From an uncultured Verrucomicrobiae bacterium (GTDB lineage Bacteria; Verrucomicrobiota; Verrucomicrobiia; Limisphaerales; Palsa-1400): a stretch of 64,000 nucleotides of DNA. Made by a program: the position numbers and the translations under genes. Below the pieces are notes generated by a model. That model had not been told where the DNA came from. It saw only the letters and a list, made by a program, of their open reading frames with translations, and did no database searches. Shown here piece by piece: positions 47,592 to 60,244 of this stretch. Each line of letters starts with the position of its first letter. Positions within the stretch are counted from its first letter, which is position 1. The stretch is taken from assembly GCA_963764165.1 (NCBI GenBank), contig CAVXRD010000002.1:2304001-2368000 (forward strand), given 5' to 3'.

Positions 47592-47666
47592 TTTGAAGGT
47601 GGCAGTGTCTAAGGACTGCAAATGTGTGGCGGCGTTCCCATGGTGCCGCCGCGCGAAATCAAAGGT

Positions 47667-49433
47667 ATGAACGAAAAAACAGTTGATAGCCCGTCCCAGT
47701 TGCTTGAACAGATGGTTGCCGCGCGGCAATTGTCTGCCACCGATGCTGCCATTCTCAATTCGCAAACGCGCTCCGGCGCGCAAAAGCAATTCACGGCCGA
47801 GGAAGATGTCCTCCAGTGGCTGGCCCATGAATATGGCCTCAGCTACACCACCCTGGAAAATGTCGAACCCGACCGCCAGTTGCTTTCACTTTTTCCCGCG
47901 CGCGTGCTCTTGAAGGAAGAATTGCTTCCGCTCCAGCGCGTCAACGGCGTGGTGGAAGTCGCCACCAGCCGGCTCTTTGCCACTCAAGGATTGGATACGC
48001 TCAAGACCTTGACTGGCCTGAAAATCAAGCCCGTCCTCGCCCCGACCGAAGCCATCCGCCGCGAAATGAAAGTCCGCCTCGGCGTCGGCGCGGACACCAT
48101 TGATACCCTCGATGACTCCGCTCCGCTGCAAGTGGTGGACGAAGATGGCGAGGATGATTCAAACCTTGAGAATGCCGCGGAAGACGCTTCGATCATCAAA
48201 TTCGTCAACCAAGTATTGACGGACGCGATTGAACTGCGCGCTTCCGATATTCACGTCGAGCCGTTCGAGGATGAGTTGCGCATTCGCTACCGCATTGACG
48301 GTGTGCTGCAGGAAATTCCCGTGCCGGCGGCCATCAAGCGCTTTCAACCGGCCATCGTCTCGCGCATCAAAATCCTGAGCCATTTGAACATCGCCGAAAA
48401 ACGGCTTCCGCAAGACGGTCGCATCAAGATCCGCCTCGCCAACAACGAGGTGGACATCCGCGTTTCGATCATCCCGATGCTGCACGGTGAAGCGATGGTG
48501 CTCCGCTTGCTGCGCCAGAAGGCAACGCTGCTGGGCGTTGAGCAGCTTGGCATGTCGGATGAAGTGGTGAAGGCGTTCAACGCCGTCCTGGAACTGCCGC
48601 ACGGAATTATACTTGTCACCGGCCCGACCGGTTCCGGCAAGACGTCCACCCTTTACACCGCGCTGGCGGCCATCAATGACGATATCCGCAAGATCATCAC
48701 CATTGAGGACCCGATTGAATACCAGATGCGCGGCATCAATCAGATTCAGGTCTCGGAAAAATCCGGGCTGACCTTCGCGCGCGGATTGCGCTCGGTGCTG
48801 CGCCATGATCCGGATGTGATTCTGGTCGGTGAAATTCGCGACCAGGAAACGGCGCAAATCGCCGTGCAAGCCTCGCTGACCGGCCACTTGGTTTTCTCCA
48901 CCCTGCACACGAACGACGCGCCCGGCGCATTGACGCGGCTGGTCGATATGAACGTCGAGCCCTATCTGGTTGCCTCCTCCCTGGAAGCCGTGCTCGCGCA
49001 GCGCCTTGTGCGGGTGCTCTGCAAGGACTGCAAGATTGAAGATACTTCCGCCACCACCGCCCTGCTGCGGGATCAAATGGGCATGCCCTCCAGCGTCAAA
49101 ATTTATCAGGGCGTCGGCTGCCCGAATTGCCGCAACACCGGTTATCATGGCCGGCACGCGATTTTTGAATGGATGGATTTGACGAGTGAAATCCGCCAGA
49201 TGGTTTTGAAAAACGCCTCGAGCGGCGAGATGCGCGAAGTCGCCGTCCGCAATGGCATGCACAGCTTGAGCGACGACGGCTGGCGCCTGATCGGCATGGG
49301 ACTGACCACGCCCCAGGAAATCATGCGCGTGGCCAAGGATCAATCGCTCCACGGTGGCCGCCCGAAACCCGCAGCCCCCGCAGCCGCGCCCGCGGAAACC
49401 GATTTCACCGTGAAAACCGCCAGAGTGGCTTAA
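47667..49433 (+). CDS. gspE: Type II secretion/pilus ATPase GspE/PulE
   Basis: ASDIHVEP, RLPQDGR, GPTGSGKT, TIEDPIE, RHDPDVILVGEIRD, STLHTN, CxxC..CxxC. Confidence 0.95.
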   Translation: MNEKTVDSPSQLLEQMVAARQLSATDAAILNSQTRSGAQKQFTAEEDVLQWLAHEYGLSYTTLENVEPDRQLLSLFPARVLLKEELLPLQRVNGVVEVATSRLFATQGLDTLKTLTGLKIKPVLAPTEAIRREMKVRLGVGADTIDTLDDSAPLQVVDEDGEDDSNLENAAEDASIIKFVNQVLTDAIELRASDIHVEPFEDELRIRYRIDGVLQEIPVPAAIKRFQPAIVSRIKILSHLNIAEKRLPQDGRIKIRLANNEVDIRVSIIPMLHGEAMVLRLLRQKATLLGVEQLGMSDEVVKAFNAVLELPHGIILVTGPTGSGKTSTLYTALAAINDDIRKIITIEDPIEYQMRGINQIQVSEKSGLTFARGLRSVLRHDPDVILVGEIRDQETAQIAVQASLTGHLVFSTLHTNDAPGALTRLVDMNVEPYLVASSLEAVLAQRLVRVLCKDCKIEDTSATTALLRDQMGMPSSVKIYQGVGCPNCRNTGYHGRHAIFEWMDLTSEIRQMVLKNASSGEMREVAVRNGMHSLSDDGWRLIGMGLTTPQEIMRVAKDQSLHGGRPKPAAPAAAPAETDFTVKTARVA

Positions 49434-49475
49434 GACTATGCGCACCGCTGCCGGCCAAAAATTCGAAGCGACAAA

Positions 49476-49631
49476 GGTAGGGACGCCTCGCCGAGGCGTC
49501 CGGGGGCATTCGTCAATAAGAGCGCGCAAAAACTGGTTTGAGAGTTCGGATGAATCGACGAAGCCTTCGGAAGAATTGTCAGCGCCAACAAATTTTCAAG
49601 CCCCCGGACGCCTCGGCGAGGCGTCCCTACC
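49476..49631. repeat. 156-bp GTAG-REP doublet between gspE and gspF
   Basis: ggtagggacgcctcgccgaggcgtccgggg ... ccccggacgcctcggcgaggcgtccctacc. Confidence 0.92.
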
Positions 49632-49649
49632 TTTCATTTGCCAATAGGT

Positions 49650-50921
49650 ATGCCCGTCTTCCAATACAAAGCATTGCAGGCCGACGGCAAATCCGCCGAG
49701 GGCACGCTCGAGGCGGGTGGCCGGCAGGAGGCGTTTCGCCAGATGGAGGAGAAAGGCCTTCGTCCAATCAGTCTCGCCGAAAGAGCGGCTGGTTCCGCTG
49801 CCGCGAAGAATGGAAGTTCCAGCTCCAGTTCGAGCAATGGAGCCGCAGCCTCGAAAGGCCTGAGTTTCAAAATCGGCGGGAACCGCGTCACTCCGAAAAT
49901 GCTGGAAACGTTTACGCGCCTGCTGGCCAGTTTGCTGGCGGCGGGCGTGCCGTTGAGCCGCGCGCTCGTGATTCTCTGCAAGGAATCTTCCAACCCGGTC
50001 GCGCAATCCAAATGGAAGGCGATTTACGATTCTGTTATTGACGGTGTCTCGCTGGCGGATTCGATGGCGACGATGCCGGAGACATTCCCGCGCGTTTACG
50101 TCGCAATGGTCTCGGCGGGCGAAACGGGCGGGTTCCTCGACCTCGTGCTTTCCCAGATCGCGGATTTCCAGGCGCGTGAGAAAGACCTCAAGTCCAAGGT
50201 AACCGCCGCGATGCTTTACCCGGCGATTTTGCTGCTGTTGTCCATCGGCGTGCTGATCGTGCTGATGACGTTTTTCGTGCCGCGCTTTCAAACGATGTTC
50301 GCGGGCTTCGGCGGGGAGTTGCCTTTGTTGACGCGCATTATTGTTGGAACCAGCCATTGGATTCGTTCCTACGGACTTTTCATCGCCATCGGGCTTGGCA
50401 TCGTGGGATTCATGGTGCGCAATTGGCTTTCCTCCGAACGCGGACGGCGCGCCTGGGAAGGACTCATCCTGAAGGCGCCGGGCATCGGCCCGCTTTTGAG
50501 CCAATTTGCCATGGCCCGCTTTTGCCGGATGCTGGGAACGCTGCTGAACTCCGGCGTGCCGCTGGTGCAGGCGCTCAACGTGGCCCGCCGCTCCATTGGC
50601 AACCAGATTCTTGTTGACGCGGTGTCCAACGCGATTGACCGTGTGAAGGAAGGCGCGCAATTGGGCGCGAGCCTCTCGGATTGCAAAACGCTTTTCCCCA
50701 GTTCCGTGCTGGAAATGATTTCGGTCGGCGAGGAAAGCGGCAAGCTCGACCAGGAATTGGTGCGCATCGCGGCTGTGACCGAAGGCGATTTGGATCGCAA
50801 CTTGAAAACAGCAGTGGCGTTCATGGAGCCGATGATGCTGTTTTTCATCGCCGGATTCATCGGGACCATTTTCATCGGCATGATCTACCCGATTTTTGCC
50901 ATGCAGGATTTTATCAAATAA
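49650..50921 (+). CDS. gspF: Type II secretion system F family protein
   Basis: MPVFQYKA, FTRLLASLLAAGVPL, AGETGG, AMLYP, VGEESGKL, EPMM. Confidence 0.95.
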   Translation: MPVFQYKALQADGKSAEGTLEAGGRQEAFRQMEEKGLRPISLAERAAGSAAAKNGSSSSSSSNGAAASKGLSFKIGGNRVTPKMLETFTRLLASLLAAGVPLSRALVILCKESSNPVAQSKWKAIYDSVIDGVSLADSMATMPETFPRVYVAMVSAGETGGFLDLVLSQIADFQAREKDLKSKVTAAMLYPAILLLLSIGVLIVLMTFFVPRFQTMFAGFGGELPLLTRIIVGTSHWIRSYGLFIAIGLGIVGFMVRNWLSSERGRRAWEGLILKAPGIGPLLSQFAMARFCRMLGTLLNSGVPLVQALNVARRSIGNQILVDAVSNAIDRVKEGAQLGASLSDCKTLFPSSVLEMISVGEESGKLDQELVRIAAVTEGDLDRNLKTAVAFMEPMMLFFIAGFIGTIFIGMIYPIFAMQDFIK

Positions 50922-50939
50922 ATAAATGAAAGGACTGAT

Positions 50940-51380
50940 ATGAACATTACAACCCGCATCACCAAACGCGCCACTCGAAAGGGCAAAGGCGCATTCACCC
51001 TCGTGGAATTGCTCCTGGTCATGACCATTCTGGCCATTCTCGCCGGCATCGTTTTGCCCAAGATGGCAGGCCGCGGCGAAGAAGCCCGCGTCAAGGCGGC
51101 CATAACTCAAATCTCCAACCTTGGAACAGCGCTGGGCGCTTACGAGGTCGATAACGGCAGCTATCCGCGCGGACAGACGGGATTGTCGGCGTTGATGGTC
51201 AAGCCGCGCGATGCGATGAATTGGCACGGGCCTTACATGGAAAAAGAAATTCCCAATGATCCCTGGGGCAAGCCGTATGTCTATCAATGCCCGGGCCGCC
51301 ACAATCCTTCGGGTTATGATCTTTCCACGACCGGCCCGGATGGCACCGTTTATGGCAATTGGACTGAAAAAGCGAAATAA
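50940..51380 (+). CDS. gspG: Major pseudopilin GspG
   Basis: AFTLVELL, AL.AYEVDNG.YP, WHGPY, DPWG.PY.Y..PG. Confidence 0.93.
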   Translation: MNITTRITKRATRKGKGAFTLVELLLVMTILAILAGIVLPKMAGRGEEARVKAAITQISNLGTALGAYEVDNGSYPRGQTGLSALMVKPRDAMNWHGPYMEKEIPNDPWGKPYVYQCPGRHNPSGYDLSTTGPDGTVYGNWTEKAK

Positions 51381-51915
51381 CGTCCGGCCGCAAGCCGCCT
51401 TTACGTTGATCGAGCTAATTCTAGTCATGACAATCATGATGGTCATCGTCGGAATTGCCGCGCCGTCCTTGAAAGGATTCTTCAAGGGGCGAAACCTCGA
51501 CAATGAGGCGGTGCGTTTCCTGGCCGTGACTCGTTACGGCCAGAGCCGCGCCATCAACGAAGGCATTCCTGTGGAATTGTGGGTCAATGCCAAGGGCGGC
51601 GCCTACGGATTGGAAGCAGTGTCGGGCTACACGGAGACGGAAAAGAAACAGCAGCAGTATAATCTGTCGCCAGGCGTGATGATCGAACTCTCGAAACCTC
51701 CGACGCTCACGGCCACAGCCACGACGCATTCGAATTATTGGATGCAGACTAAGGCGCAAGTCGGCAACACGACGCGCATTCGTTTTCAGCCGGACGGGTT
51801 TATAAGTGACATGAGCCCGCAGAATATTTACCTGCGGCAGGAGGACCGCAGCCAGATAACGATTGCAGAAGCGCCGACGCACATGGGGTACGTTATTAAA
51901 CCTGCGCAGCCATAA
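51352..51915 (+). CDS. Minor pseudopilin (GspH/FimT-like)
   Basis: MAIGLKKRNNVRPQAAFTLIELILV; IRFQPDG; overlaps gspG end. Confidence 0.82.
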   Translation: MAIGLKKRNNVRPQAAFTLIELILVMTIMMVIVGIAAPSLKGFFKGRNLDNEAVRFLAVTRYGQSRAINEGIPVELWVNAKGGAYGLEAVSGYTETEKKQQQYNLSPGVMIELSKPPTLTATATTHSNYWMQTKAQVGNTTRIRFQPDGFISDMSPQNIYLRQEDRSQITIAEAPTHMGYVIKPAQP

Positions 51916-51917
51916 CA

Positions 51918-52511
51918 ATGAACCTCGGCTCTAATCTGAATAAGGTAGGGACGCCTCGCCGAGGCGTCCGGGGGCTATCGTCAATCGGGACGCGCAATGC
52001 CTCGCTTGAGCGTTCGGATGCACGCGCGAGGCATTCGGAGAAGTATTCAGCGCCTGCAAATTTTCACGTCGCCGGACGCCTCGGCGAGGCGTCCCTACCT
52101 TCTAAGCGCCGCGCCGCTGGCTTCACGCTGGCCGAAGTGCTGGCGGCGCTATTGCTGATGGCGATCGTCATTCCGGTGGCGCTTGAAGGATTGCGCGTGG
52201 CCAGCCGGGCTGGCGAAATGGCCCAGCGCAAAATGATCGCCACCCGCATTGGCAATATGGAAATGAATCAGTTGAAGGTGATGAACCAATTGCGCGGCGG
52301 CGGCCAGGCTGGCGTGGTGGTGGATCATGGCATTTCCTACCGTTGGTCCCTCAAGAATGAGGGTTGGACAGGCGATTCCCTCAGCCAGCTTTCGCAGGCA
52401 ACCATCATAGTGAGCTTCCCGGTGCAGGGAAGAGACTACGAGGTCCATTTGAGCACGCTGGTTTCGGCCCAAACACAGCAGGCCAACGCCACGAGCTCGG
52501 GAATGTATTGA
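51918..52511 (+). CDS. Minor pseudopilin (GspI-like) with REP doublet in its leader peptide
   Basis: GFTLAEVLAAL at residue ~68; leader contains element 51944-52099. Confidence 0.85.
   Translation: MNLGSNLNKVGTPRRGVRGLSSIGTRNASLERSDARARHSEKYSAPANFHVAGRLGEASLPSKRRAAGFTLAEVLAALLLMAIVIPVALEGLRVASRAGEMAQRKMIATRIGNMEMNQLKVMNQLRGGGQAGVVVDHGISYRWSLKNEGWTGDSLSQLSQATIIVSFPVQGRDYEVHLSTLVSAQTQQANATSSGMY
51944..52099. repeat. 156-bp GTAG-REP doublet, in-frame within the pseudopilin leader
   Basis: Same arms and same length as 49476-49631. Confidence 0.92.
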
Positions 52512-52514
52512 TAC

Positions 52515-53438
52515 ATGAACGCGCGCATTGAACCCAAGACGTTGTCAGGGCGAGGCTCCCGCCGAGCCATGCCTTGCTTGGTCTTTGCGCGCATCTCCGC
52601 CGGAGCGCGGCTGTGTCGAAGACCAGCCGCAGCAGCATTCGAATTGGCTGGCGCGTCTCTCATTTTGGCGTGGCTGCGGCTGGTCTTCGACACAGCCGCG
52701 CTCCGTCATGGCTCGGCGGGAGCCTCGCCCCACCGTGCTCATGGGCATAATCACGTGCGACGCGCCCGCGCATTCACGCTGATTGAATTGCTGCTGGCTA
52801 TTTCCATGATGGCCATCGTTCTGGTGGCGGTGGGCGGAATGCTTTTCACCGCAATGCATCTGAGAAACACCGCCATTAATTCCCTCGAGGCGACCCTGCC
52901 CGTCGAACAGGCCCTGGACATCATGCAGCGCGATCTGGCCAACATCAATTGCAGCACCAACACCAACGGAATTTTCCTCGCTCCATTTCAGAGCATTCCG
53001 ACGAACGCCATACCCAACCAAATCGGCCCGAGTTTTTACACATCCGACGGCGAGTTGGATGGCAACACGCCGTTCGGCTGCATGCAGAAGGTCAACTATC
53101 TGCTGGCGCGATCCACCAACGGCTATCGCGGGCCGGGCCTCGATTTGATCCGCGCCGTGACGCGCAATTTGCTGTCCGTCAACCAGCCGCCGATGCCGGA
53201 CGAGCAGCACGCCATTCTCAGCGGGGTGCAATCGCTGACGTTCCAATATTACGACGGCACCAGCTGGGACCAGGTCTGGGACACCACGCAGCAAACAAAT
53301 TTGCCGCTGGCGATCAAAGTGCAAATCAAAATGGCCGCGGATCCCAACTCAGGCCCGCTTGCCCAGGCGTCGCCTTTGGAATTGGTTGTTCCTATCGACG
53401 TTCTCCTGACCACCAACACGGTCACCGCGATCCAATGA
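52515..53438 (+). CDS. Minor pseudopilin (GspJ-like)
   Basis: RAFTLIELLLAI; QRDLAN; FQYYDGTSW..WDTT...LPLAIKVQI; start either 52515 (ATG) or 52755 (GTG). Confidence 0.85.
   Translation: MNARIEPKTLSGRGSRRAMPCLVFARISAGARLCRRPAAAAFELAGASLILAWLRLVFDTAALRHGSAGASPHRAHGHNHVRRARAFTLIELLLAISMMAIVLVAVGGMLFTAMHLRNTAINSLEATLPVEQALDIMQRDLANINCSTNTNGIFLAPFQSIPTNAIPNQIGPSFYTSDGELDGNTPFGCMQKVNYLLARSTNGYRGPGLDLIRAVTRNLLSVNQPPMPDEQHAILSGVQSLTFQYYDGTSWDQVWDTTQQTNLPLAIKVQIKMAADPNSGPLAQASPLELVVPIDVLLTTNTVTAIQ
52548..52730. repeat. Nested REP doublets in the gspJ-like 5' region
   Basis: Outer gggcgaggctcccgccgagccatg / catggctcggcgggagcctcgccc; inner 52601-52633 / 52673-52705 identical to arms at 8786-8891. Confidence 0.92.
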
Positions 53439-54862
53439 AAACTTGCGCCAATAACAACCCATCCAATCGCGGCTCAGTGCTCGTGATCGTCATGTGGGTC
53501 GCGCTTGGGCTGGTCGCCGTCACGCTTTATTTCGGAAATTCGATGCTAATGAATTTGAAAGCCGCCGACAATCGCGCGGCCGGAATGGAAGCCGATCAAG
53601 CCATCGAAGGGGCGGCCCTTTACGTGAGCAACGTGCTGGCCAACCGCCTCAACATGATGACTCTTCCCGGCACGAACAATTTCCGCGTCAACGGCGTGAA
53701 ACTCGGCGAGGCGAAATTTTGGATCATCGGCCGCGATACCAATTATACTCAGGCCAGCCTGGCTGCCGACACGCCGACGTGGGGATTGATTGATGAAGCG
53801 GCCAAGGTCAATTTGAACTATTTGACCGGCTCGAACGCCGAAAACCTGCCGGGTGTGAGCCTCAACGTGGGGTCGGCGATGAACGATTGGCACACCACCA
53901 ACACCAACCCGAGCACTTACGGCGCGAAAACAGAAACGTATTCAGGTCTGCAGCCTGCCTACAGTTCTAAGAACGCCCCGTATGAAACGGTGGATGAATT
54001 GCGCATGGTTTACGGAATGAGCCTGGACCTTTTTTATGGCGAGGACGCCAATTGGAACGGCGCGCTGGATCCCAATGAAGACGACGGCCTGAAATTGCCT
54101 CCCGCCGACAATCAAAACGGCACGCTGGATTCCGGCTTGGTCGAGTATTGCACGACCTGGACACATGAGTCCCTCGTTTCCACCAACGGGACAAACCGGG
54201 TCGTGGTGACCAACCTCACCGCCTTGCAGGGGCTCATCAATAGCAATTTTTATGGTTTTCCCATGGGAAAATTTGCCGCCTCCTCGTCGTCTTCCAGCAG
54301 CGGCGGAGCGGGTTCGGGGGGGCGTTCCACCGGGGGATCGACTGGCTCCGCCGCCGCGGCCTCCGCCACCGCGCCGACCAGCGTTCTGGATTTTTATGTG
54401 AACAGCGGCATGACGCCGAGCCAGTTTGAGCAAGTCGAGCCGTTCCTCCTCAATAATCCAACCGGCACCGGGTTGCTGAATATCAACACGGCCTCGCAAG
54501 CGGCATTGGGCTGCATTCCGGGCATCGGCAGCAACACCGCCGCGCAAATTCTGACTTATCGCCAATCCAATCCCACGCTCGCCCCCACGGTATCCTGGCT
54601 GGCGACTGCCATGGGCGGCAACACGCAGGGGATCGAAGCCGCCGGCCCCTACATCACCGCCTACAGCTACCAATTCACCGCCGACATCGTGGCTGTGGGC
54701 CACAACAACCGCGGCTACCGGCGCGTGATGTTCGTTTTTGATTGCACCACGGGAGTCCCGCTGATCATATTCCGGCAGGACTTGACCCATCTCGGCTGGC
54801 CATTAGGCAAAAAGCTGCACGACCAAATGTTAACCGGGCAACTTGCCCTTAATTCCCGATGA
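53435..54862 (+). CDS. gspK: GspK-like minor pseudopilin
   Basis: RGSVLVIVMW, DEAAKVNLN, ETVDELRMV.G, LNINTAS..L..IPGIG helix-hairpin-helix; Asp-rich DANWNGALD loop. Confidence 0.85.
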   Translation: MKTCANNNPSNRGSVLVIVMWVALGLVAVTLYFGNSMLMNLKAADNRAAGMEADQAIEGAALYVSNVLANRLNMMTLPGTNNFRVNGVKLGEAKFWIIGRDTNYTQASLAADTPTWGLIDEAAKVNLNYLTGSNAENLPGVSLNVGSAMNDWHTTNTNPSTYGAKTETYSGLQPAYSSKNAPYETVDELRMVYGMSLDLFYGEDANWNGALDPNEDDGLKLPPADNQNGTLDSGLVEYCTTWTHESLVSTNGTNRVVVTNLTALQGLINSNFYGFPMGKFAASSSSSSSGGAGSGGRSTGGSTGSAAAASATAPTSVLDFYVNSGMTPSQFEQVEPFLLNNPTGTGLLNINTASQAALGCIPGIGSNTAAQILTYRQSNPTLAPTVSWLATAMGGNTQGIEAAGPYITAYSYQFTADIVAVGHNNRGYRRVMFVFDCTTGVPLIIFRQDLTHLGWPLGKKLHDQMLTGQLALNSR

Positions 54863-56298
54863 TCAACCTGTTCAAACCCAAACGCGGCTCGTCCGTTCTC
54901 GGAATCGCCCTCGACGGCAACCGGCTGGAAGCCGTCGTCCTGCGCCGTTCCAATGGCACGCTGCAAGTCCGCCAGACCGTTTCGGTTCCGCTGGCGCTCT
55001 CGCCGCTGACCGACGATCCGCTGCTGGCCGGACGCGAAATTCGAAATCATCTTGACGCCGCTGGCGTGCGGGAAAAGAACTGCGCCGTCTGCATTCCGGT
55101 AAGCTGGCTGCTGACACTGCAAACGAAGCTGCCGGAGTTGGCGGAGGCGGATCGCGCGGGTTTTTTGCAATTGGAAGCTGAACGCGGATTCCACAGCGGG
55201 CCGGAAAGCCTCTTCACAACGACTTCGATTTTTCAGGCCGGGCCGAACGAGCAATACGCCTCGCTGCTGGCCCTGCCGCGCAACAATCTAGAGACGCTGG
55301 AAAAAGTTCTTCGCGCCGCCAGGTTGAAGCCGGTCACCTTTGGCCTCGGCATCAGCGCGGTGCAGCCGGCGGCGGCTGAGAACAATCGGGTCATCACCAT
55401 TTTAGTCCGCAGCAACGCCATTGATCTGCAAGTCACCGGCGGCGGCGGCATCGTCGCCCTGCGCGCGCTGGACGGCGCGATGGAAACGCAAGGGGCCATG
55501 AAGCGGATTTCCTCGGAATTCACCGCCCGCGAAATCCGCATCACGCTCGGCCAGATGCCCGGAACGCTGGCGGACGGGGGCGGGAAGATTCGCGTCGTCG
55601 GCCAGGGCGAATTGGTGCGGCAGTTCGTCCACGAAATTTCCCCGCGCCTTGAAGCGATGGGGCTGAAATTGGAGACGTCCGAAAAGGCAAGCAACGCCAG
55701 TTTCGACCGGACGCTGCCCGCCGATCTGGCTGCCTCCGGCGCGGTCGCTCTCGCGGCGGCTTGGGTGCGCGGGGCCGATACGATGCCGGAACTTTTGCCG
55801 CCCAAGGTTCAGCCATGGCAGCAATGGATGAGCAAAGGGCTCTCCGCCAAGAAACTGATCTGGGTGGGCGAAGCGGCGGGAGTCGTGGTCGGCTGCGTGG
55901 TGCTCGCGTTTGGCTACCAGCAATATCAGCTCACCAAATTGCGCAACCAATGGGCCCGCATCGCGCCGAAATACAATGAGTTGATGGCCATGCAGCAAAA
56001 CATCCAGGAATTTGCGGACTATTACAAGCAGGCAGGCCGCAACGTCGCCATCTGGGCGAAGCTTGCTTCCACGTTTCCGAAGGACAACTCGGTCTCGCTG
56101 AAGACACTGGAAGTGCGCGATCAAAATAGCGTCACCTGCACGGGCGTCGCGAAGGACAATGACGCCTTCGCCAAGGTCTTCAGCAAATTAAGCGATGATT
56201 CAACCAACATTAGCAACGTGCATCCCGAAACCCGAGGCAATCGACCCATGCAATTCACGCTGACTTTTCAATGGACCGGAGGCGCCAATGGAAACTAA
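54859..56298 (+). CDS. GspL/PilM-PilN-like assembly protein
   Basis: SVLGIALDG actin-like start, ELLPP followed by TM helix and coiled coil; position in operon. Confidence 0.7.
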   Translation: MINLFKPKRGSSVLGIALDGNRLEAVVLRRSNGTLQVRQTVSVPLALSPLTDDPLLAGREIRNHLDAAGVREKNCAVCIPVSWLLTLQTKLPELAEADRAGFLQLEAERGFHSGPESLFTTTSIFQAGPNEQYASLLALPRNNLETLEKVLRAARLKPVTFGLGISAVQPAAAENNRVITILVRSNAIDLQVTGGGGIVALRALDGAMETQGAMKRISSEFTAREIRITLGQMPGTLADGGGKIRVVGQGELVRQFVHEISPRLEAMGLKLETSEKASNASFDRTLPADLAASGAVALAAAWVRGADTMPELLPPKVQPWQQWMSKGLSAKKLIWVGEAAGVVVGCVVLAFGYQQYQLTKLRNQWARIAPKYNELMAMQQNIQEFADYYKQAGRNVAIWAKLASTFPKDNSVSLKTLEVRDQNSVTCTGVAKDNDAFAKVFSKLSDDSTNISNVHPETRGNRPMQFTLTFQWTGGANGN

Positions 56299-57340
56299 GA
56301 ACCGCGAAAAACTCCTCCTGATCGGGGTCGCCATCTGCGTCGGCATGTATCTTATCGTGACGCTGGTGATTGATCCTTTGGTTGACAGCTGGCACAGCCG
56401 CACGGAGGAAATCGCCAAGCTGAACAAGCAAATTGCCGATGGATTAAGAGTGATCCGTTATCAGGATGAGACACGCGACAAATGGGATTTCATGCGCGGC
56501 AACGCGCTTTCCAAAGACCAGACGGCCGCGGAAGGCCAGATGTTCGGCGAGTTTCACAAGTGGGTGGAATCCGCGGGCGTCGCGCCTGGCTCGTTCCGCC
56601 CGCAAATTCAGGAGTCCGACAGCAACTACACGACGATCGATTGCCGTTCCGATGTCAGCGGCAGCCCGGAGTCCGTGCGCGACTTTCTCCGCAACATGAG
56701 CCGCGACTCGATGTCCGACAAGGTGCAGTCCTTTGAGTTATCCACCAAGGATGACAACGGCCGCCAACTGTCGCTGGGATTGAACACGAGCGGATTGATC
56801 ATAGCCGACAACGATCCCACCCAGGTCCAGCTTCCTCCTTCCGCGACCAATGAGCCGCCGGCCGAGACAAACATGCCTGATCCCTACCGCATCATTGCGC
56901 GCAATAATATATTTGACCAGACACGGATTGACAGGGTGGAAGGCCCGGTTCGCGAACGGCCGCGCGTGGTGAAAGTGGAAACGATCAGCGTCCATGGAAT
57001 TGGCGCGGATACCAATGGCGATGCCAATTTCGAGGGCACGGGCATCGACAGCACCAGGTTTTATCCGAAGGGCGCGAAGGTTGGGGACTTCACGCTGGCC
57101 AAGATTGGATTTGATACCGTGACCCTGGTGGATTCGAGCAGCAACACCTTTGTCCTCCCCGCCGACGGCACCTCCTCGCTCAAGCGTGAAGACGGAGGTC
57201 CGTGGGCCCGCGTCGGCTATATTCCTCCGCCGGAAGCTCAAGTGAGCAATGCCACCGCTTCGTCCGGTGGCTCCGCGCCGCCCTCTTCGGTCAGCGCCGT
57301 GGAAGAAATGTTGAGAAAACGCCGCTTGGAAGCCAAATAA
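56288..57340 (+). CDS. GspM/PilO-like protein with C-terminal GspC-like extension
   Basis: KNREKLL..TM helix, coiled coil, ferredoxin-like core, then Y.IIARNNIFD and beta-rich domain ending MLRKRR. Confidence 0.6.
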   Translation: METKNREKLLLIGVAICVGMYLIVTLVIDPLVDSWHSRTEEIAKLNKQIADGLRVIRYQDETRDKWDFMRGNALSKDQTAAEGQMFGEFHKWVESAGVAPGSFRPQIQESDSNYTTIDCRSDVSGSPESVRDFLRNMSRDSMSDKVQSFELSTKDDNGRQLSLGLNTSGLIIADNDPTQVQLPPSATNEPPAETNMPDPYRIIARNNIFDQTRIDRVEGPVRERPRVVKVETISVHGIGADTNGDANFEGTGIDSTRFYPKGAKVGDFTLAKIGFDTVTLVDSSSNTFVLPADGTSSLKREDGGPWARVGYIPPPEAQVSNATASSGGSAPPSSVSAVEEMLRKRRLEAK

Positions 57341-57374
57341 CACCTAAACCCATTTCATTTAAACTATTCCAAAT

Positions 57375-58973
57375 ATGAAAAAACAACAATTCACCGCGAT
57401 CCTGCTGGGCACGCTGACGAGTGCGTGGCTCGCCAGCGCGCAGGAGGCCGCCAGCACTGCCCCCGCTCCGGCCGACGCCGCGGCCACGAACTCCGCCGCA
57501 ACGAACGCTCCTGCGCCGCCGCCCGCGCCAGCCATTCAAGCCGATGCCGAGGCAAGTTCGACGAACGGCTTGGTGCTCAATTTTCATGATGTTCCCCTGA
57601 CCGCCGTGCTCAACTATTTGAGCGCGAAGGCGGGGCTTATCATCGTGTCCGACGTCAACCTGCAAGGGAAAGTGACCGTCGTTTCCAAGCAGCCTGTCGC
57701 GACCAATGAAATTGTCCAGCTTCTCAACGATCAATTGGGCAAGAACAATTATTCCGCCGTCATGGACGGCCGGACGCTCTCGATCATGGACAACGAGCGC
57801 GCCAAGACCTACGCGCATACACCGGTCCGCGTCGCCAATGGAACCAACAACATCCTCTTCACAGATCAAATTGTGACGGAGATCATTCCACTGCACACGC
57901 TGCAGGCGCCGCAATTGGTCAAAGACTTGTCGGATTTGATTCCGCGCAGCGCGGTTGTGACGGCGAATGAAGCCGGAAATTCCATCATCATGACAGCGCA
58001 GGAAAAGGACGTTCGCCGCGTCGCGGAAATCATCGATTCCCTGGACGGCTCGGCAGTATCGCAAGTGGAAGTTTTCAAATTGGATTACGCGGATTCCAAA
58101 TCAGTGGCCGATGAATTGAAGGAAGTTTTTCAAAGCGACGATTCGCAAATCGCCCGCGCCAACACGCGCAATAGCTTCGTTCGCGGTGCGGGCGGCGGCG
58201 GTCGCGGAGGTGGCGGCGGCGGCTTTGGTGGCATGGGAGGATTCGCGGCCATGATGGGTGGCGGCGGAGGCGGCGGCGGTGAGGAAGGAAGAAACGTTGC
58301 CACGCACGCTGTCTTTGTGGCGGATGATCAAATGAACGCCGTGATCGCGAGCGCTCCGCCGGATTACATGCGCATGATTACAAATGTCATCAAAGTGCTT
58401 GATCAGCCGAGCCAGGAAGTCACCGTGCTCCGCGTTCTCAAGCTGAAGCATGCGGATCCCGGCGAAATTTCCGATGAATTGAACAACATGTTCAATCCCA
58501 CCAGCAGCACCGATCAAAGCACCCGCTCCATGGGGATGCGGTTCATGGGCTTCGGCGGCGGCGGACCCTTTGGCGGCTTCGGCGGCGGCGGCGGCAACAA
58601 TAATAATCAAAGCCAGCGCATGAAACGCCAGATGGCAGTCTCCGTGGTGCCAGATCGCCGCAAGCAAGCTGTCATCGTCAGCGCCTCACGGGAAATGATG
58701 GCGGAGATCGAGGGCGTGGTGAAGGATTTGGACGAGGGCAACGAAGGAGTCCAGCACGTGGCGGCGTTTGACATCGGCACGGCCGATCCCGCCCAAGTGT
58801 TCGAGACCTTGTCCGGCCTCTTCATGAGCACGACGAAACCCAATTCGGCAAATTCCACCACGCTGACCCAGACGCCTCAAACCACCCGCTACACTGGCAA
58901 CGCCAACGCGCAAACCAGCGCGGCGCAAAACGCGCAAACAAGCACCACCAGCATGGGATCCAAAGCTCCTTGA
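57375..58973 (+). CDS. Secretin N-terminal-domain protein (no secretin pore domain)
   Basis: Signal peptide; LNFHDVPL..VL N0 domain; repeated LDYAD/LKHAD N1-N3-like modules; Gly-rich inserts. Confidence 0.8.
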   Translation: MKKQQFTAILLGTLTSAWLASAQEAASTAPAPADAAATNSAATNAPAPPPAPAIQADAEASSTNGLVLNFHDVPLTAVLNYLSAKAGLIIVSDVNLQGKVTVVSKQPVATNEIVQLLNDQLGKNNYSAVMDGRTLSIMDNERAKTYAHTPVRVANGTNNILFTDQIVTEIIPLHTLQAPQLVKDLSDLIPRSAVVTANEAGNSIIMTAQEKDVRRVAEIIDSLDGSAVSQVEVFKLDYADSKSVADELKEVFQSDDSQIARANTRNSFVRGAGGGGRGGGGGGFGGMGGFAAMMGGGGGGGGEEGRNVATHAVFVADDQMNAVIASAPPDYMRMITNVIKVLDQPSQEVTVLRVLKLKHADPGEISDELNNMFNPTSSTDQSTRSMGMRFMGFGGGGPFGGFGGGGGNNNNQSQRMKRQMAVSVVPDRRKQAVIVSASREMMAEIEGVVKDLDEGNEGVQHVAAFDIGTADPAQVFETLSGLFMSTTKPNSANSTTLTQTPQTTRYTGNANAQTSAAQNAQTSTTSMGSKAP

Positions 58974-59002
58974 CGGCTTAATCTGTCAACCAAACAAATT
59001 CT

Positions 59003-60244
59003 ATGACGATTCAAAACTTGAAACACACGGCCTGCCGAGGCGCGGCCTTGATTGCATGCGCCCTCGCGATTCCCGCGCTGGCCCAGGGAACTGGTGGCCG
59101 CGGCGGCGGCGGCGGCGGCGGAAACTTTGGCGGCGGCGCAGGAGGAGGAGGCGGCGGCGGCGGGCGCGCCGGGACGGCCAGCACGGCCACCACCAGCGCC
59201 ATTGACCGCCCCGGCAACGGCCAGATTGGCTCCGCCAACTTTTATGTCGACAGGGATACCGGCCAGGTTTTCGTCATTGCCGATGATCAGACACTGATGA
59301 GTGTCAGCAATGTCGTCGCCGGCCTGGCCAAGCCCAAGCCGCAGGTCTTGATCAAGGTCGTCTTCCTTGAAGCCACCTACAACAAGGGCTACGACGTTGG
59401 AATTGAAGGCGGCGTGACCAAGAACATCAACGCCAGCACATCGCTGAGCGCGTCCAACTTGTTTGGCCTGGCCTCGCAGGGTGTGACTCCCACCTCGGGC
59501 GTCAACACGCTGCCGGGAGCCGGCCTGTATACCATCGCCGGCAATAACTGGGAAGCGACGGTTCGCGCCATTGCTGAGCACGCGCACGTTGAAGTTCTCT
59601 CCCGTCCGACCATCCTGGCCCGCCATAACCAGATGGCAACCATTCAGGTTGGCCAGAATGTCCCGCTCATCACCAGCGTCAACTTCGGCGCGCTGGGCAA
59701 CCAGGAAAACGGCATCACGTATTCACCGGTCGGCATCATTTTGAACGTGACGCCCTTTATCGGCTCCGACGGCACCGTGGAAATGATATTGAACCCGCAA
59801 ATCTCGGCGGTGGACCCAACCTTGTCGCAGGCGGTTTCCTACACCACCAACGGCACGGCCATCACCGCGCCTTACATTGATATTGAATCGGCCAATACAG
59901 TGGTCGCCACACCCGACGGCCAGACAGTCGTCATCGGCGGCTTGATGAAAAACAGCAAGTCCGACACGGACAGCAAAATTCCGCTGCTGGGCGACATTCC
60001 GGGCCTGGGCGCGCTGTTTCATCATAAAGTTCACTATATCGCCAAGCAGGAGCTGATCATTATGCTGACACCGTATGTGGTGCGGACGCCCGCCGACCTG
60101 GCCCGCATGAGCTCCGACGAGCGCGGCCGCACTGAGATGGCGCCGAAGGCTTTCACGGAGAAGGAAATGAACCGGTATCTGGAAGGCGGCAAACCGACCC
60201 TGGCCCCGGAGCCGGCGCCGCCGGTTGCCATTCCTCCACGATAA
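59003..60244 (+). CDS. gspD: Short secretin (GspD C-terminal pore domain)
   Basis: Signal peptide; PQVLIKV, VLSRPTIL, GIILNVTP.I, DGQTVVIGGL, KIPLLGDIPGLGALF, ELIIMLTP.VV. Confidence 0.88.
   Translation: MTIQNLKHTACRGAALIACALAIPALAQGTGGRGGGGGGGNFGGGAGGGGGGGGRAGTASTATTSAIDRPGNGQIGSANFYVDRDTGQVFVIADDQTLMSVSNVVAGLAKPKPQVLIKVVFLEATYNKGYDVGIEGGVTKNINASTSLSASNLFGLASQGVTPTSGVNTLPGAGLYTIAGNNWEATVRAIAEHAHVEVLSRPTILARHNQMATIQVGQNVPLITSVNFGALGNQENGITYSPVGIILNVTPFIGSDGTVEMILNPQISAVDPTLSQAVSYTTNGTAITAPYIDIESANTVVATPDGQTVVIGGLMKNSKSDTDSKIPLLGDIPGLGALFHHKVHYIAKQELIIMLTPYVVRTPADLARMSSDERGRTEMAPKAFTEKEMNRYLEGGKPTLAPEPAPPVAIPPR

What the first reader, a model, noticed from the sequence alone, without database searches (positions are those of the whole stretch)
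51918..52125. Palindromic REP doublet lodged in-frame inside a cleavable prepilin leader peptide (gspI-like)
Seen: a 156-bp GTAG-REP doublet (51944-52099, exactly 52 codons, no stop) lies between the ATG at 51918 and the GFTLAE cleavage motif. It has the same arms and length as the intergenic copy at 49476-49631. I find no in-frame ATG/GTG/TTG between 51918 and the motif, so translation would have to pass through the element. Removing it leaves an ordinary short leader (MNLGSNLNK..SKRRAAG|FTL). Established: prepilin peptidase removes everything N-terminal to G|F, and in-frame palindromes in proteins are known from Rickettsia RPEs. Inference: class III leader peptides act as a protein-level safe harbour in which mobile palindromes are cut away post-translationally; the mRNA hairpin might also tune minor-pilin stoichiometry.
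Basis: partly seen in the sequence, partly recalled or inferred. Interest (0 to 1): 0.85.

Follow-up and report, generated by a model that had tools for sequence, protein, structure and literature searches.

The report
Selfish hairpins tolerated in cleaved leaders
A mobile hairpin repeat sits, without a stop codon, in the front segment of a secretion-pilin gene, where it is likely translated and then likely cut off with that segment; such repeats are far commoner in these disposable leaders than inside ordinary genes, here and in relatives.

Summary
Observation confirmed, with one correction. A 156-bp GTAG REP doublet (a REPIN; two cognate RAYT transposase genes are in the genome) lies stop-free between the only in-frame ATG/GTG/TTG (51918) and the G|F site of gspI in an intact type II secretion operon. 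The leader is 68 residues; the median over 133 loci is 19. Correction: the start is not ancestral. In 21 of 21 anchored relatives gspI starts inside gspH. Here that codon reads ACG, one base out of frame, the element lies just before the old gspH stop, and stop and start are both new. The safe-harbour idea holds statistically: 8 of 95 prepilin leaders must be read through repeats, against about 7 repeats in 5.76 Mb of gene interiors. Long gspJ leaders of relatives stay in frame (33 of 36 clusters; chance one third). Sec and lipoprotein signal peptides behave alike (9-13 cases). A role in pilin stoichiometry is unsupported. Translation and cleavage are inferred; no reads were available. Intragenic REPs are known; I found no paper on leaders as their refuge. 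This scan noted the same phenomenon before in other genomes (15 notes).

The parts
51944..52099 (.). REPIN: inverted doublet of a GTAG-tagged REP (core GTAG..CTAC 51945-52098; perfect arms 51942-51971 and 52072-52101)
51918..52121 (+). 68-residue class III leader of GspI (13 K/R, 4 D/E, no hydrophobic stretch), from a lineage-specific ATG two bases after the gspH stop
52122..52511 (+). mature GspI-like minor pseudopilin, 129 aa, intact; N_methyl motif over cut-off, GspI/XpsI models below cut-off, 60-64% identical to the four congeners
51890..51892 (+). ACG at the position of the ancestral gspI ATG (inside gspH); out of frame by one base with the cleavage motif
51913..51915 (+). present (new) gspH stop codon
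52103..52105 (+). TAA 16 nt before the cleavage site: the position of the gspH stop in 17 of 27 family relatives; the element sits just 5' of it
49476..49631 (.). sister REPIN between gspE and gspF; the only other doublet with the 154-bp core among 119
52548..52730 (.). two nested repeat doublets of other families (outer arms 52548-52571/52707-52730, inner arms 52601-52633/52673-52705) in the 86-residue gspJ leader 52515-52772; a GTG at 52755 could bypass them
47622..60244 (+). type II secretion operon: gspE, F, G, H, I, J, K, two unassigned ORFs, secretin in two ORFs

Best explanation
A REPIN (REP doublet), likely moved by its RAYT transposase, lies in the gspH-gspI junction and likely survives because it is translated as part of the GspI leader, which prepilin peptidase would cut off. 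Shown: the element, the open frame, the single canonical start, short leaders in orthologues, a new stop and start in this lineage, an intact pilD-like gene, and enrichment of repeats in leaders. Inferred steps: (1) REPs land or persist mostly just behind stop codons, which in a packed operon is the next gene's leader; (2) selection removes copies that break the frame or damage a mature protein; (3) copies in a cytoplasmic, discarded leader persist, here together with a new gspH stop and a new gspI ATG, in unknown order; (4) the ribosome starts 24 nt before the hairpin, likely by coupling to gspH, and unwinds it; (5) PilD cleaves at G|F and releases a normal pilin. The insertion is likely tolerated rather than useful.
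For: Only start is 51918, two bases after the gspH stop and outside the hairpin. The leader is hydrophilic and basic and ends in Gly, as class III leaders do; they are variable in length and cytoplasmic (PMC10191384 passages). A pilD-like gene with both Asp motifs is present (motifs recognised from memory). Mature GspI keeps 39 of 43 family-conserved columns, 0.91 against a median of 0.93. In this genome 8 of 95 prepilin leaders have a repeat behind the last canonical start, 1.75 per kb, against 0.86 per kb between genes and about 0.001 per kb inside genes. Control: 32 of 40 other genes with a repeat in the open frame upstream had a Pfam hit, and in 32 of 32 the domain began after the gene's own downstream start. 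In relatives, long gspJ junctions are open in the motif frame in 62 of 66 loci (control frames 23 and 21), and the ATG overlapping the gspI stop is in frame in 44 of 49 loci and 33 of 36 sequence clusters. In-frame stops observed against shuffled: gspH 6 vs 61, gspI 1 vs 17, gspJ 6 vs 81. 23 of 46 long gspJ leaders fold at z < -2, against 3 of 46 mature stretches. RAYT genes flanked by perfect arms lie at C2:2170023 and C4:582583.
Against: There is no expression or protein evidence. The ancestral start is lost and the junction is shifted by one base, so the event was not simply harmless. GspH and GspI of this genome changed 2-6 times faster than in congeners (relative-rate tests, most P <= 0.02), GspG did not and GspJ only in 2 of 8 tests; relaxed selection is possible. 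About 7 repeats also persist inside mature proteins, so cleavage is not required for tolerance. About half of all doublet reading frames are stop-free anyway (351 of 714). The only leaders I read to be cleaved experimentally are 18 residues long (PMC5389465 passage), not 68. The enrichment rests on my own gene caller and motif rules, and the Pfam anchor for control genes is less strict than the cleavage motif.
Confidence: 0.72

Rival explanations
1. The insertion crippled gspI: the 51918 ATG is a chance codon or a weak start, little GspI is made, and gspH-gspI are under relaxed selection.
For: Ancestral ATG lost and frame shifted. GspH and GspI show 20-36 private changes against 5-11 in congeners. 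A 30-bp perfect stem could block ribosomes or be cut by RNase III (inference).
Against: No stop or frameshift in the mature gene; 39 of 43 conserved columns kept; pN/pS 0.39-0.45 against 0.27-0.43 among congeners, and synonymous divergence is raised too. The two sister elements differ at 29 of 156 sites, so the copy is not new. The rest of the operon is intact.
Confidence: 0.12
2. Translation starts at a near-cognate codon inside the element, or the ribosome bypasses the hairpin, so most of the element is not coding.
For: ATC 51984 and ACG 51951/51990 are in frame. Di Nocera 2013 warns that N-terminal REPs are often extragenic. gspJ here has a GTG behind its repeats. Two of 95 prepilins have no canonical start at all.
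Against: No start-like codon lies behind the element. The inner codons lie within the hairpin domain. Frame and stop statistics in relatives show that such stretches are read through.
Confidence: 0.08
3. The hairpin was retained because it tunes the mRNA, lowering minor pseudopilins relative to GspG.
For: Very stable stem, -128.6 kcal/mol for the region. Repeats occur at three junctions of this operon. Hairpin-rich inserts recur at pseudopilin junctions across the order. mRNA stabilisation by REPs is a standing hypothesis (PMC3733652 abstract).
Against: Most relatives lack any insert at gspI (116 of 135 short); inserts differ between lineages (47 clusters among 66 gspJ cases); none lies between gspG and gspH here, where the step-down would be needed; the arm has 0, 0, 0 and 8 copies in the four congeners.
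Confidence: 0.08

Closest known systems
REPINs with RAYT (Bertels and Rainey 2011, PMC3116915; passages read)
   Same: Inverted REP doublet with spacer forming a long hairpin; doublets outnumber the singlet threshold; RAYT genes flanked by the same REP; mostly between genes.
   Different: This copy is in a coding frame; the excision intermediate and the true ends were not observed.
Intragenic GTAG REPs (Di Nocera 2013, PMC3733652; passages, section 15 and a search of 4 supplements)
   Same: GTAG tag; dimers inside ORFs; most numerous in the verrucomicrobium O. terrae.
   Different: The paper treats N-terminal cases as often misannotated; 'signal peptide' does not occur in its main text and 'pilin' not in the 4 supplements held. 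Here the cleavage motif and orthologues argue for read-through.
Rickettsia palindromic elements and other repeats fused to ORFs (Ogata 2000, not read; seen through PMC3733652 and PMC3184786 passages)
   Same: Palindromes of about 150 bp in frame in working genes.
   Different: RPE peptide stays in the mature protein; here it would be removed with the leader.
Class III signal peptides of type 4 pilins (Pelicic 2023, PMC10191384; passages)
   Same: Hydrophilic leader ending in Gly, then a hydrophobic stretch with Glu5.
   Different: 68 residues here and up to about 130 in relatives, built from repeat DNA.

Membership tests
REPIN / GTAG REP | GTAG tag followed by a short imperfect palindrome, in high copy | tested here: met
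   177 exact copies of the 26-mer; 409 tagged arms at up to 4 mismatches
REPIN / GTAG REP | Two REPs in inverted orientation forming a hairpin; singlet to doublet ratio below 2 | tested here: met
   119 doublets and 171 unpaired arms, ratio 1.4; fold z = -6.1
REPIN / GTAG REP | Cognate RAYT gene flanked by the same REP | tested here: met
   The L338 ORF scores 98 bits on NF047646 (cut-off 80). Two stop-free homologues in this genome, 66-67% identical, carry perfect arms on both sides. G011 and G022 show the same layout. The two own-genome proteins were not themselves scanned against NCBIfam.
REPIN / GTAG REP | Predominantly extragenic; no target-site duplication | tested here: met
   1064 of 1228 repeat elements of all families touch no called gene; 4 of 119 doublets lie wholly inside called genes; no duplication of 4 nt or more except one chance 5-mer
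REPIN / GTAG REP | Movement catalysed by RAYT | not testable with these tools
   Patchy copy number (315 here; 0-8 in congeners; 131 in G011) fits mobility
Class III (prepilin) signal peptide | Hydrophilic leader ending in Gly/Ala, then about 20 hydrophobic residues with Glu5 | tested here: met
   PF07963 over cut-off; highest 15-residue hydropathy in the leader 0.14
Class III (prepilin) signal peptide | Cleavage by prepilin peptidase | not testable with these tools
   A pilD-like gene is present
GspI minor pseudopilin | Family model over cut-off | tested here: not met
   TIGR01707 23 of 44 bits, NF047828 25 of 150; the name rests on best hit and gene order
GspI minor pseudopilin | Position between gspH and gspJ in a type II secretion operon | tested here: met
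Rickettsia palindromic element | Sequence homology to RPE-1 to RPE-10 | not tested
   Functional analogy only; membership is not claimed

The most novel reading that the evidence does not exclude
Cleaved N-terminal leaders of all three classes are a general refuge for REPINs, and a net sink: leaders hold at least as many repeats per kb as intergenic DNA although only about one in six random insertions should keep the frame. REPIN arrival at overlapping stop-start junctions would then drive rescue by new stop and start codons, rewriting operon junctions and stretching prepilin leaders to 70-130 residues that the peptidase still removes.
Probability: 0.3. Interest if true: 0.68.

Novelty: new variant of a known kind. 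Interest (0 to 1): 0.47.

Why it matters
It gives a simple, quantified rule for where selfish palindromes can persist inside genes: in the part of the protein that is thrown away. It predicts that prepilin peptidase ignores leader length and sequence far beyond the short leaders usually studied, which one reporter experiment can test. It also matters for annotation: my own gene caller placed the gspI start behind the cleavage motif, so such pilins and secreted proteins are easily mis-started or missed.

Tried and rejected
Sequencing runs: none was listed for 50900-53500, so neither expression nor empty-site alleles could be checked. A multiple DNA alignment of the junction misplaced the insert; I used anchored positions instead. 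Fixing the element's ends from copies in coding context failed: core lengths modulo 3 were 6, 5 and 3 of 14, so no frame-neutral unit length is shown. Local hopping as a general rule was rejected: only this pair, 2 of 119 doublets, has its nearest relative within 20 kb, with 0.75 expected. The Y1_Tnp family search listed 10 places, none flanked by this REP; the cognate RAYTs appeared only with a protein query. Variable loops in mature GspJ are Gly/Ser-rich and not hairpins (14 of 14 inspected). Control frames are biased, because ATG-A starts put a TGA in another frame, so I rely on the overlap-ATG and shuffle tests. Literature: searches (listings only) showed no paper on REPs in leader or signal peptides; some searches served background; PMC7509114 held only a reference title. 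Subscription papers, including Ogata 2000, are outside the library, and the PDF supplements of PMC3116915 were not read. No structure prediction was run, because the leader is not part of the mature fold.

Full report
Observation. The window lies in a 7.0-Mb assembly. It looks verrucomicrobial, which I infer from the taxa that share its repeat. The finding sits in a type II secretion operon, gspE-F-G-H-I-J-K and secretin. The element at 51944-52099 is 156 bp with perfect 30-nt inverted arms and matches the intergenic copy at 49476-49631 at 127 of 156 positions. The frame from ATG 51918 runs without a stop to G|FTLAE, giving a 68-residue leader. No other ATG, GTG or TTG is in frame, and no near-cognate codon lies behind the element.

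The element. It is a REPIN. The genome has 409 tagged arms, in 119 doublets and 171 unpaired arms, with no target duplication; core lengths modulo 3 are 43, 42 and 34. A pattern scan found a RAYT gene flanked by this REP in another genome (L338; NF047646 over cut-off). With that protein I found two stop-free homologues here, each between perfect arms. The arm has 315 copies in this genome, 0, 0, 0 and 8 in the four congeners, 131 in G011, and occurs in 13 of 31 family genomes. The 154-bp core occurs only twice, both times in this operon, which suggests one copy came from the other (inference).

History of the site. I examined 148 loci: the best-scoring gspI matches (fetched); lower-ranked matches were not fetched, and 146 had a usable motif. 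The gspI leader has a median of 19 residues in 133 loci, and 68 is the longest. One search compared 27 family relatives; L016 was left out for an atypical gspH end, and L054 was not included. In 21 of the 21 where a gspH anchor was found, the gspI ATG lies 28 nt after the anchor, inside gspH, and the gspH stop lies 10-28 nt before the cleavage site (16 nt in 17 of 27). Here that position reads ACG (51890) and is one base out of frame. A TAA still stands 16 nt before the cleavage site, directly after the element. gspH now ends at 51915 and gspI starts two bases later. The region is 181 nt longer than in most congeners. Either the junction was rebuilt first and a frame-neutral 156-bp unit followed, or a 154- or 160-bp unit shifted the frame and a new ATG rescued the gene. 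Copies in other coding contexts do not decide this.

Is gspI alive? The mature gene is intact and keeps 39 of 43 conserved columns. However, GspH and GspI changed 2-6 times faster than in congeners, at synonymous sites too; GspG did not, and GspJ only in 2 of 8 tests. A pilD-like gene is present. No sequencing run was listed, so expression is unchecked.

Enrichment in this genome. With my own gene caller (5082 genes) and a high-copy word mask, 1064 of 1228 repeat elements touch no gene. A first census gave 9 of 91 prepilin genes with a repeat behind the last canonical start; a stricter six-frame census gave 8 of 95. In two of these the last start lies close to or within the repeat's end. Three more genes, gspJ among them, depend on a GTG or TTG to avoid the repeat, and a GspK/PilX-like gene has one too. 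By eye about 7 elements lie inside other genes. Rates are 1.75 per kb in leaders, taking 16 codons per gene as target, 0.86 per kb between co-directional genes and about 0.001 per kb in gene interiors. As a control, 99 cases among genes without a signal motif had a repeat in the open frame upstream; 50 had the next start 12 or more codons away, and I scanned 40 of those. 32 had a Pfam hit, and in all 32 the domain began after that start. Fisher's test, 8 of 95 against 2 of 3732, gives P = 5e-12; the classes are heuristic. In 62% of 459 co-directional gaps with a repeat, it begins within 60 nt of the upstream stop, the place that in a packed operon is the next gene's leader.

Enrichment in relatives. 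For gspJ, 66 relatives have 66-450 nt between the gspI stop and the cleavage site. 62 are open in the motif frame, against 23 and 21 in the other frames. Where an ATG overlaps the gspI stop it is in frame in 44 of 49 loci, and in 33 of 36 after clustering similar leaders; chance is one third. In-frame stops are 6, 1 and 6 for gspH, gspI and gspJ, against 61, 17 and 81 in shuffles. Half of the 46 longest gspJ leaders are hairpin-rich, against 3 of 46 mature stretches. Kin are not fully independent, and not every long leader was shown to be a repeat.

Other cleaved leaders. From I judged 9 clear and 4 marginal cases of repeats in the n-region of Sec or lipoprotein signal peptides, among about 830 genes with a heuristic signal. 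Two were checked against orthologues. FliP keeps the ancestral start seen in relatives, followed by about 100 repeat-coded residues, though a TTG in the repeat's tail could bypass most of them. An FG-GAP protein has a doublet where most orthologues have a short n-region. An earlier scan note reports the same in other genomes; I had seen these cases before reading it.

Mechanism. Shown: anatomy, single start, rebuilt junction, enrichment, frame conservation. Established: class III leaders are hydrophilic, variable in length, cytoplasmic and cleaved after Gly/Ala (PMC10191384, passages). Inferred: RAYT-driven arrival near a stop codon, selection on frame, coupled initiation upstream of the hairpin, and removal by PilD. 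I put this at 0.72, a crippled gene at 0.12, a bypassing start at 0.08 and a selected regulatory role at 0.08.

Comparison and verdict. Intragenic GTAG REPs are known and most numerous in O. terrae, and their authors doubted N-terminal cases (PMC3733652). Repeats fused to ORFs are reviewed in PMC3184786 (passages), and REPINs are defined in PMC3116915 (passages). Searches listed no paper naming cleaved leaders as a refuge. This scan has noted it in other genomes: 8 prepilin notes and 7 signal-peptide notes, all unchecked AI notes. The finding is a real, well-supported variant of a known kind. What this locus adds is a controlled count and a junction with a new stop and start. Interest 0.47.

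Noticed in passing
window 52548-52730: Nested doublets of two other repeat families in the gspJ leader (85 and 145 arm copies at up to 3 mismatches). The inner family flanks a Y1_Tnp gene at G000 C1:293973 on both sides, probably its own RAYT. Read through, this leader has a hydrophobic stretch (1.95), so the GTG at 52755 may be the real start.
   Followed up: partly
window 57375-58973 and 59003-60244: The secretin is encoded as two ORFs (N-domains; secretin core). In 5 of 5 relatives the core lies in an open frame of only 423-611 aa, so the split looks conserved.
   Followed up: partly
L007, L011, L016, L018, L019, L020, L033, L075 (gspJ leader): An inverted hexamer-repeat element coding NLNLNP...RLRLG fills the gspJ leader in several genera; it has up to 12 stops in other frames and none in frame.
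   Followed up: partly
G000 C1:692442, C2:1541208, C2:1649551, C2:2185082, C2:2608955: In-frame doublets inside cytoplasmic or mature proteins. By motifs recalled from memory: a GluQ-like synthetase, a membrane protein, an RluA-like pseudouridine synthase, AroD and a cytochrome c peroxidase.
   Followed up: no
G000 C2:1732098: A gene reads through a whole doublet and stops right after it, a C-terminal extension.
   Followed up: no
window 51352-52511: gspH and gspI are more diverged from congeners than gspG and gspJ, at synonymous sites too; possibly a recombined block.
   Followed up: partly
L005 (G001): An extra degenerate gspG-like ORF lies between gspG and gspH.
   Followed up: no
L257: The same REP arm lies in the open frame before a prepilin motif in another verrucomicrobial genome.
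   Followed up: no
G000 whole genome: At least 40 distinct short repeat families, several with 10-bp periodic arms. The arm studied here also occurs in Acidobacteria, Lentisphaerae, Kiritimatiellae and Rubricoccaceae records.
   Followed up: no
G000 C3:237389 and C4:514127: Two prepilin genes with no in-frame ATG, GTG or TTG before the motif.
   Followed up: no
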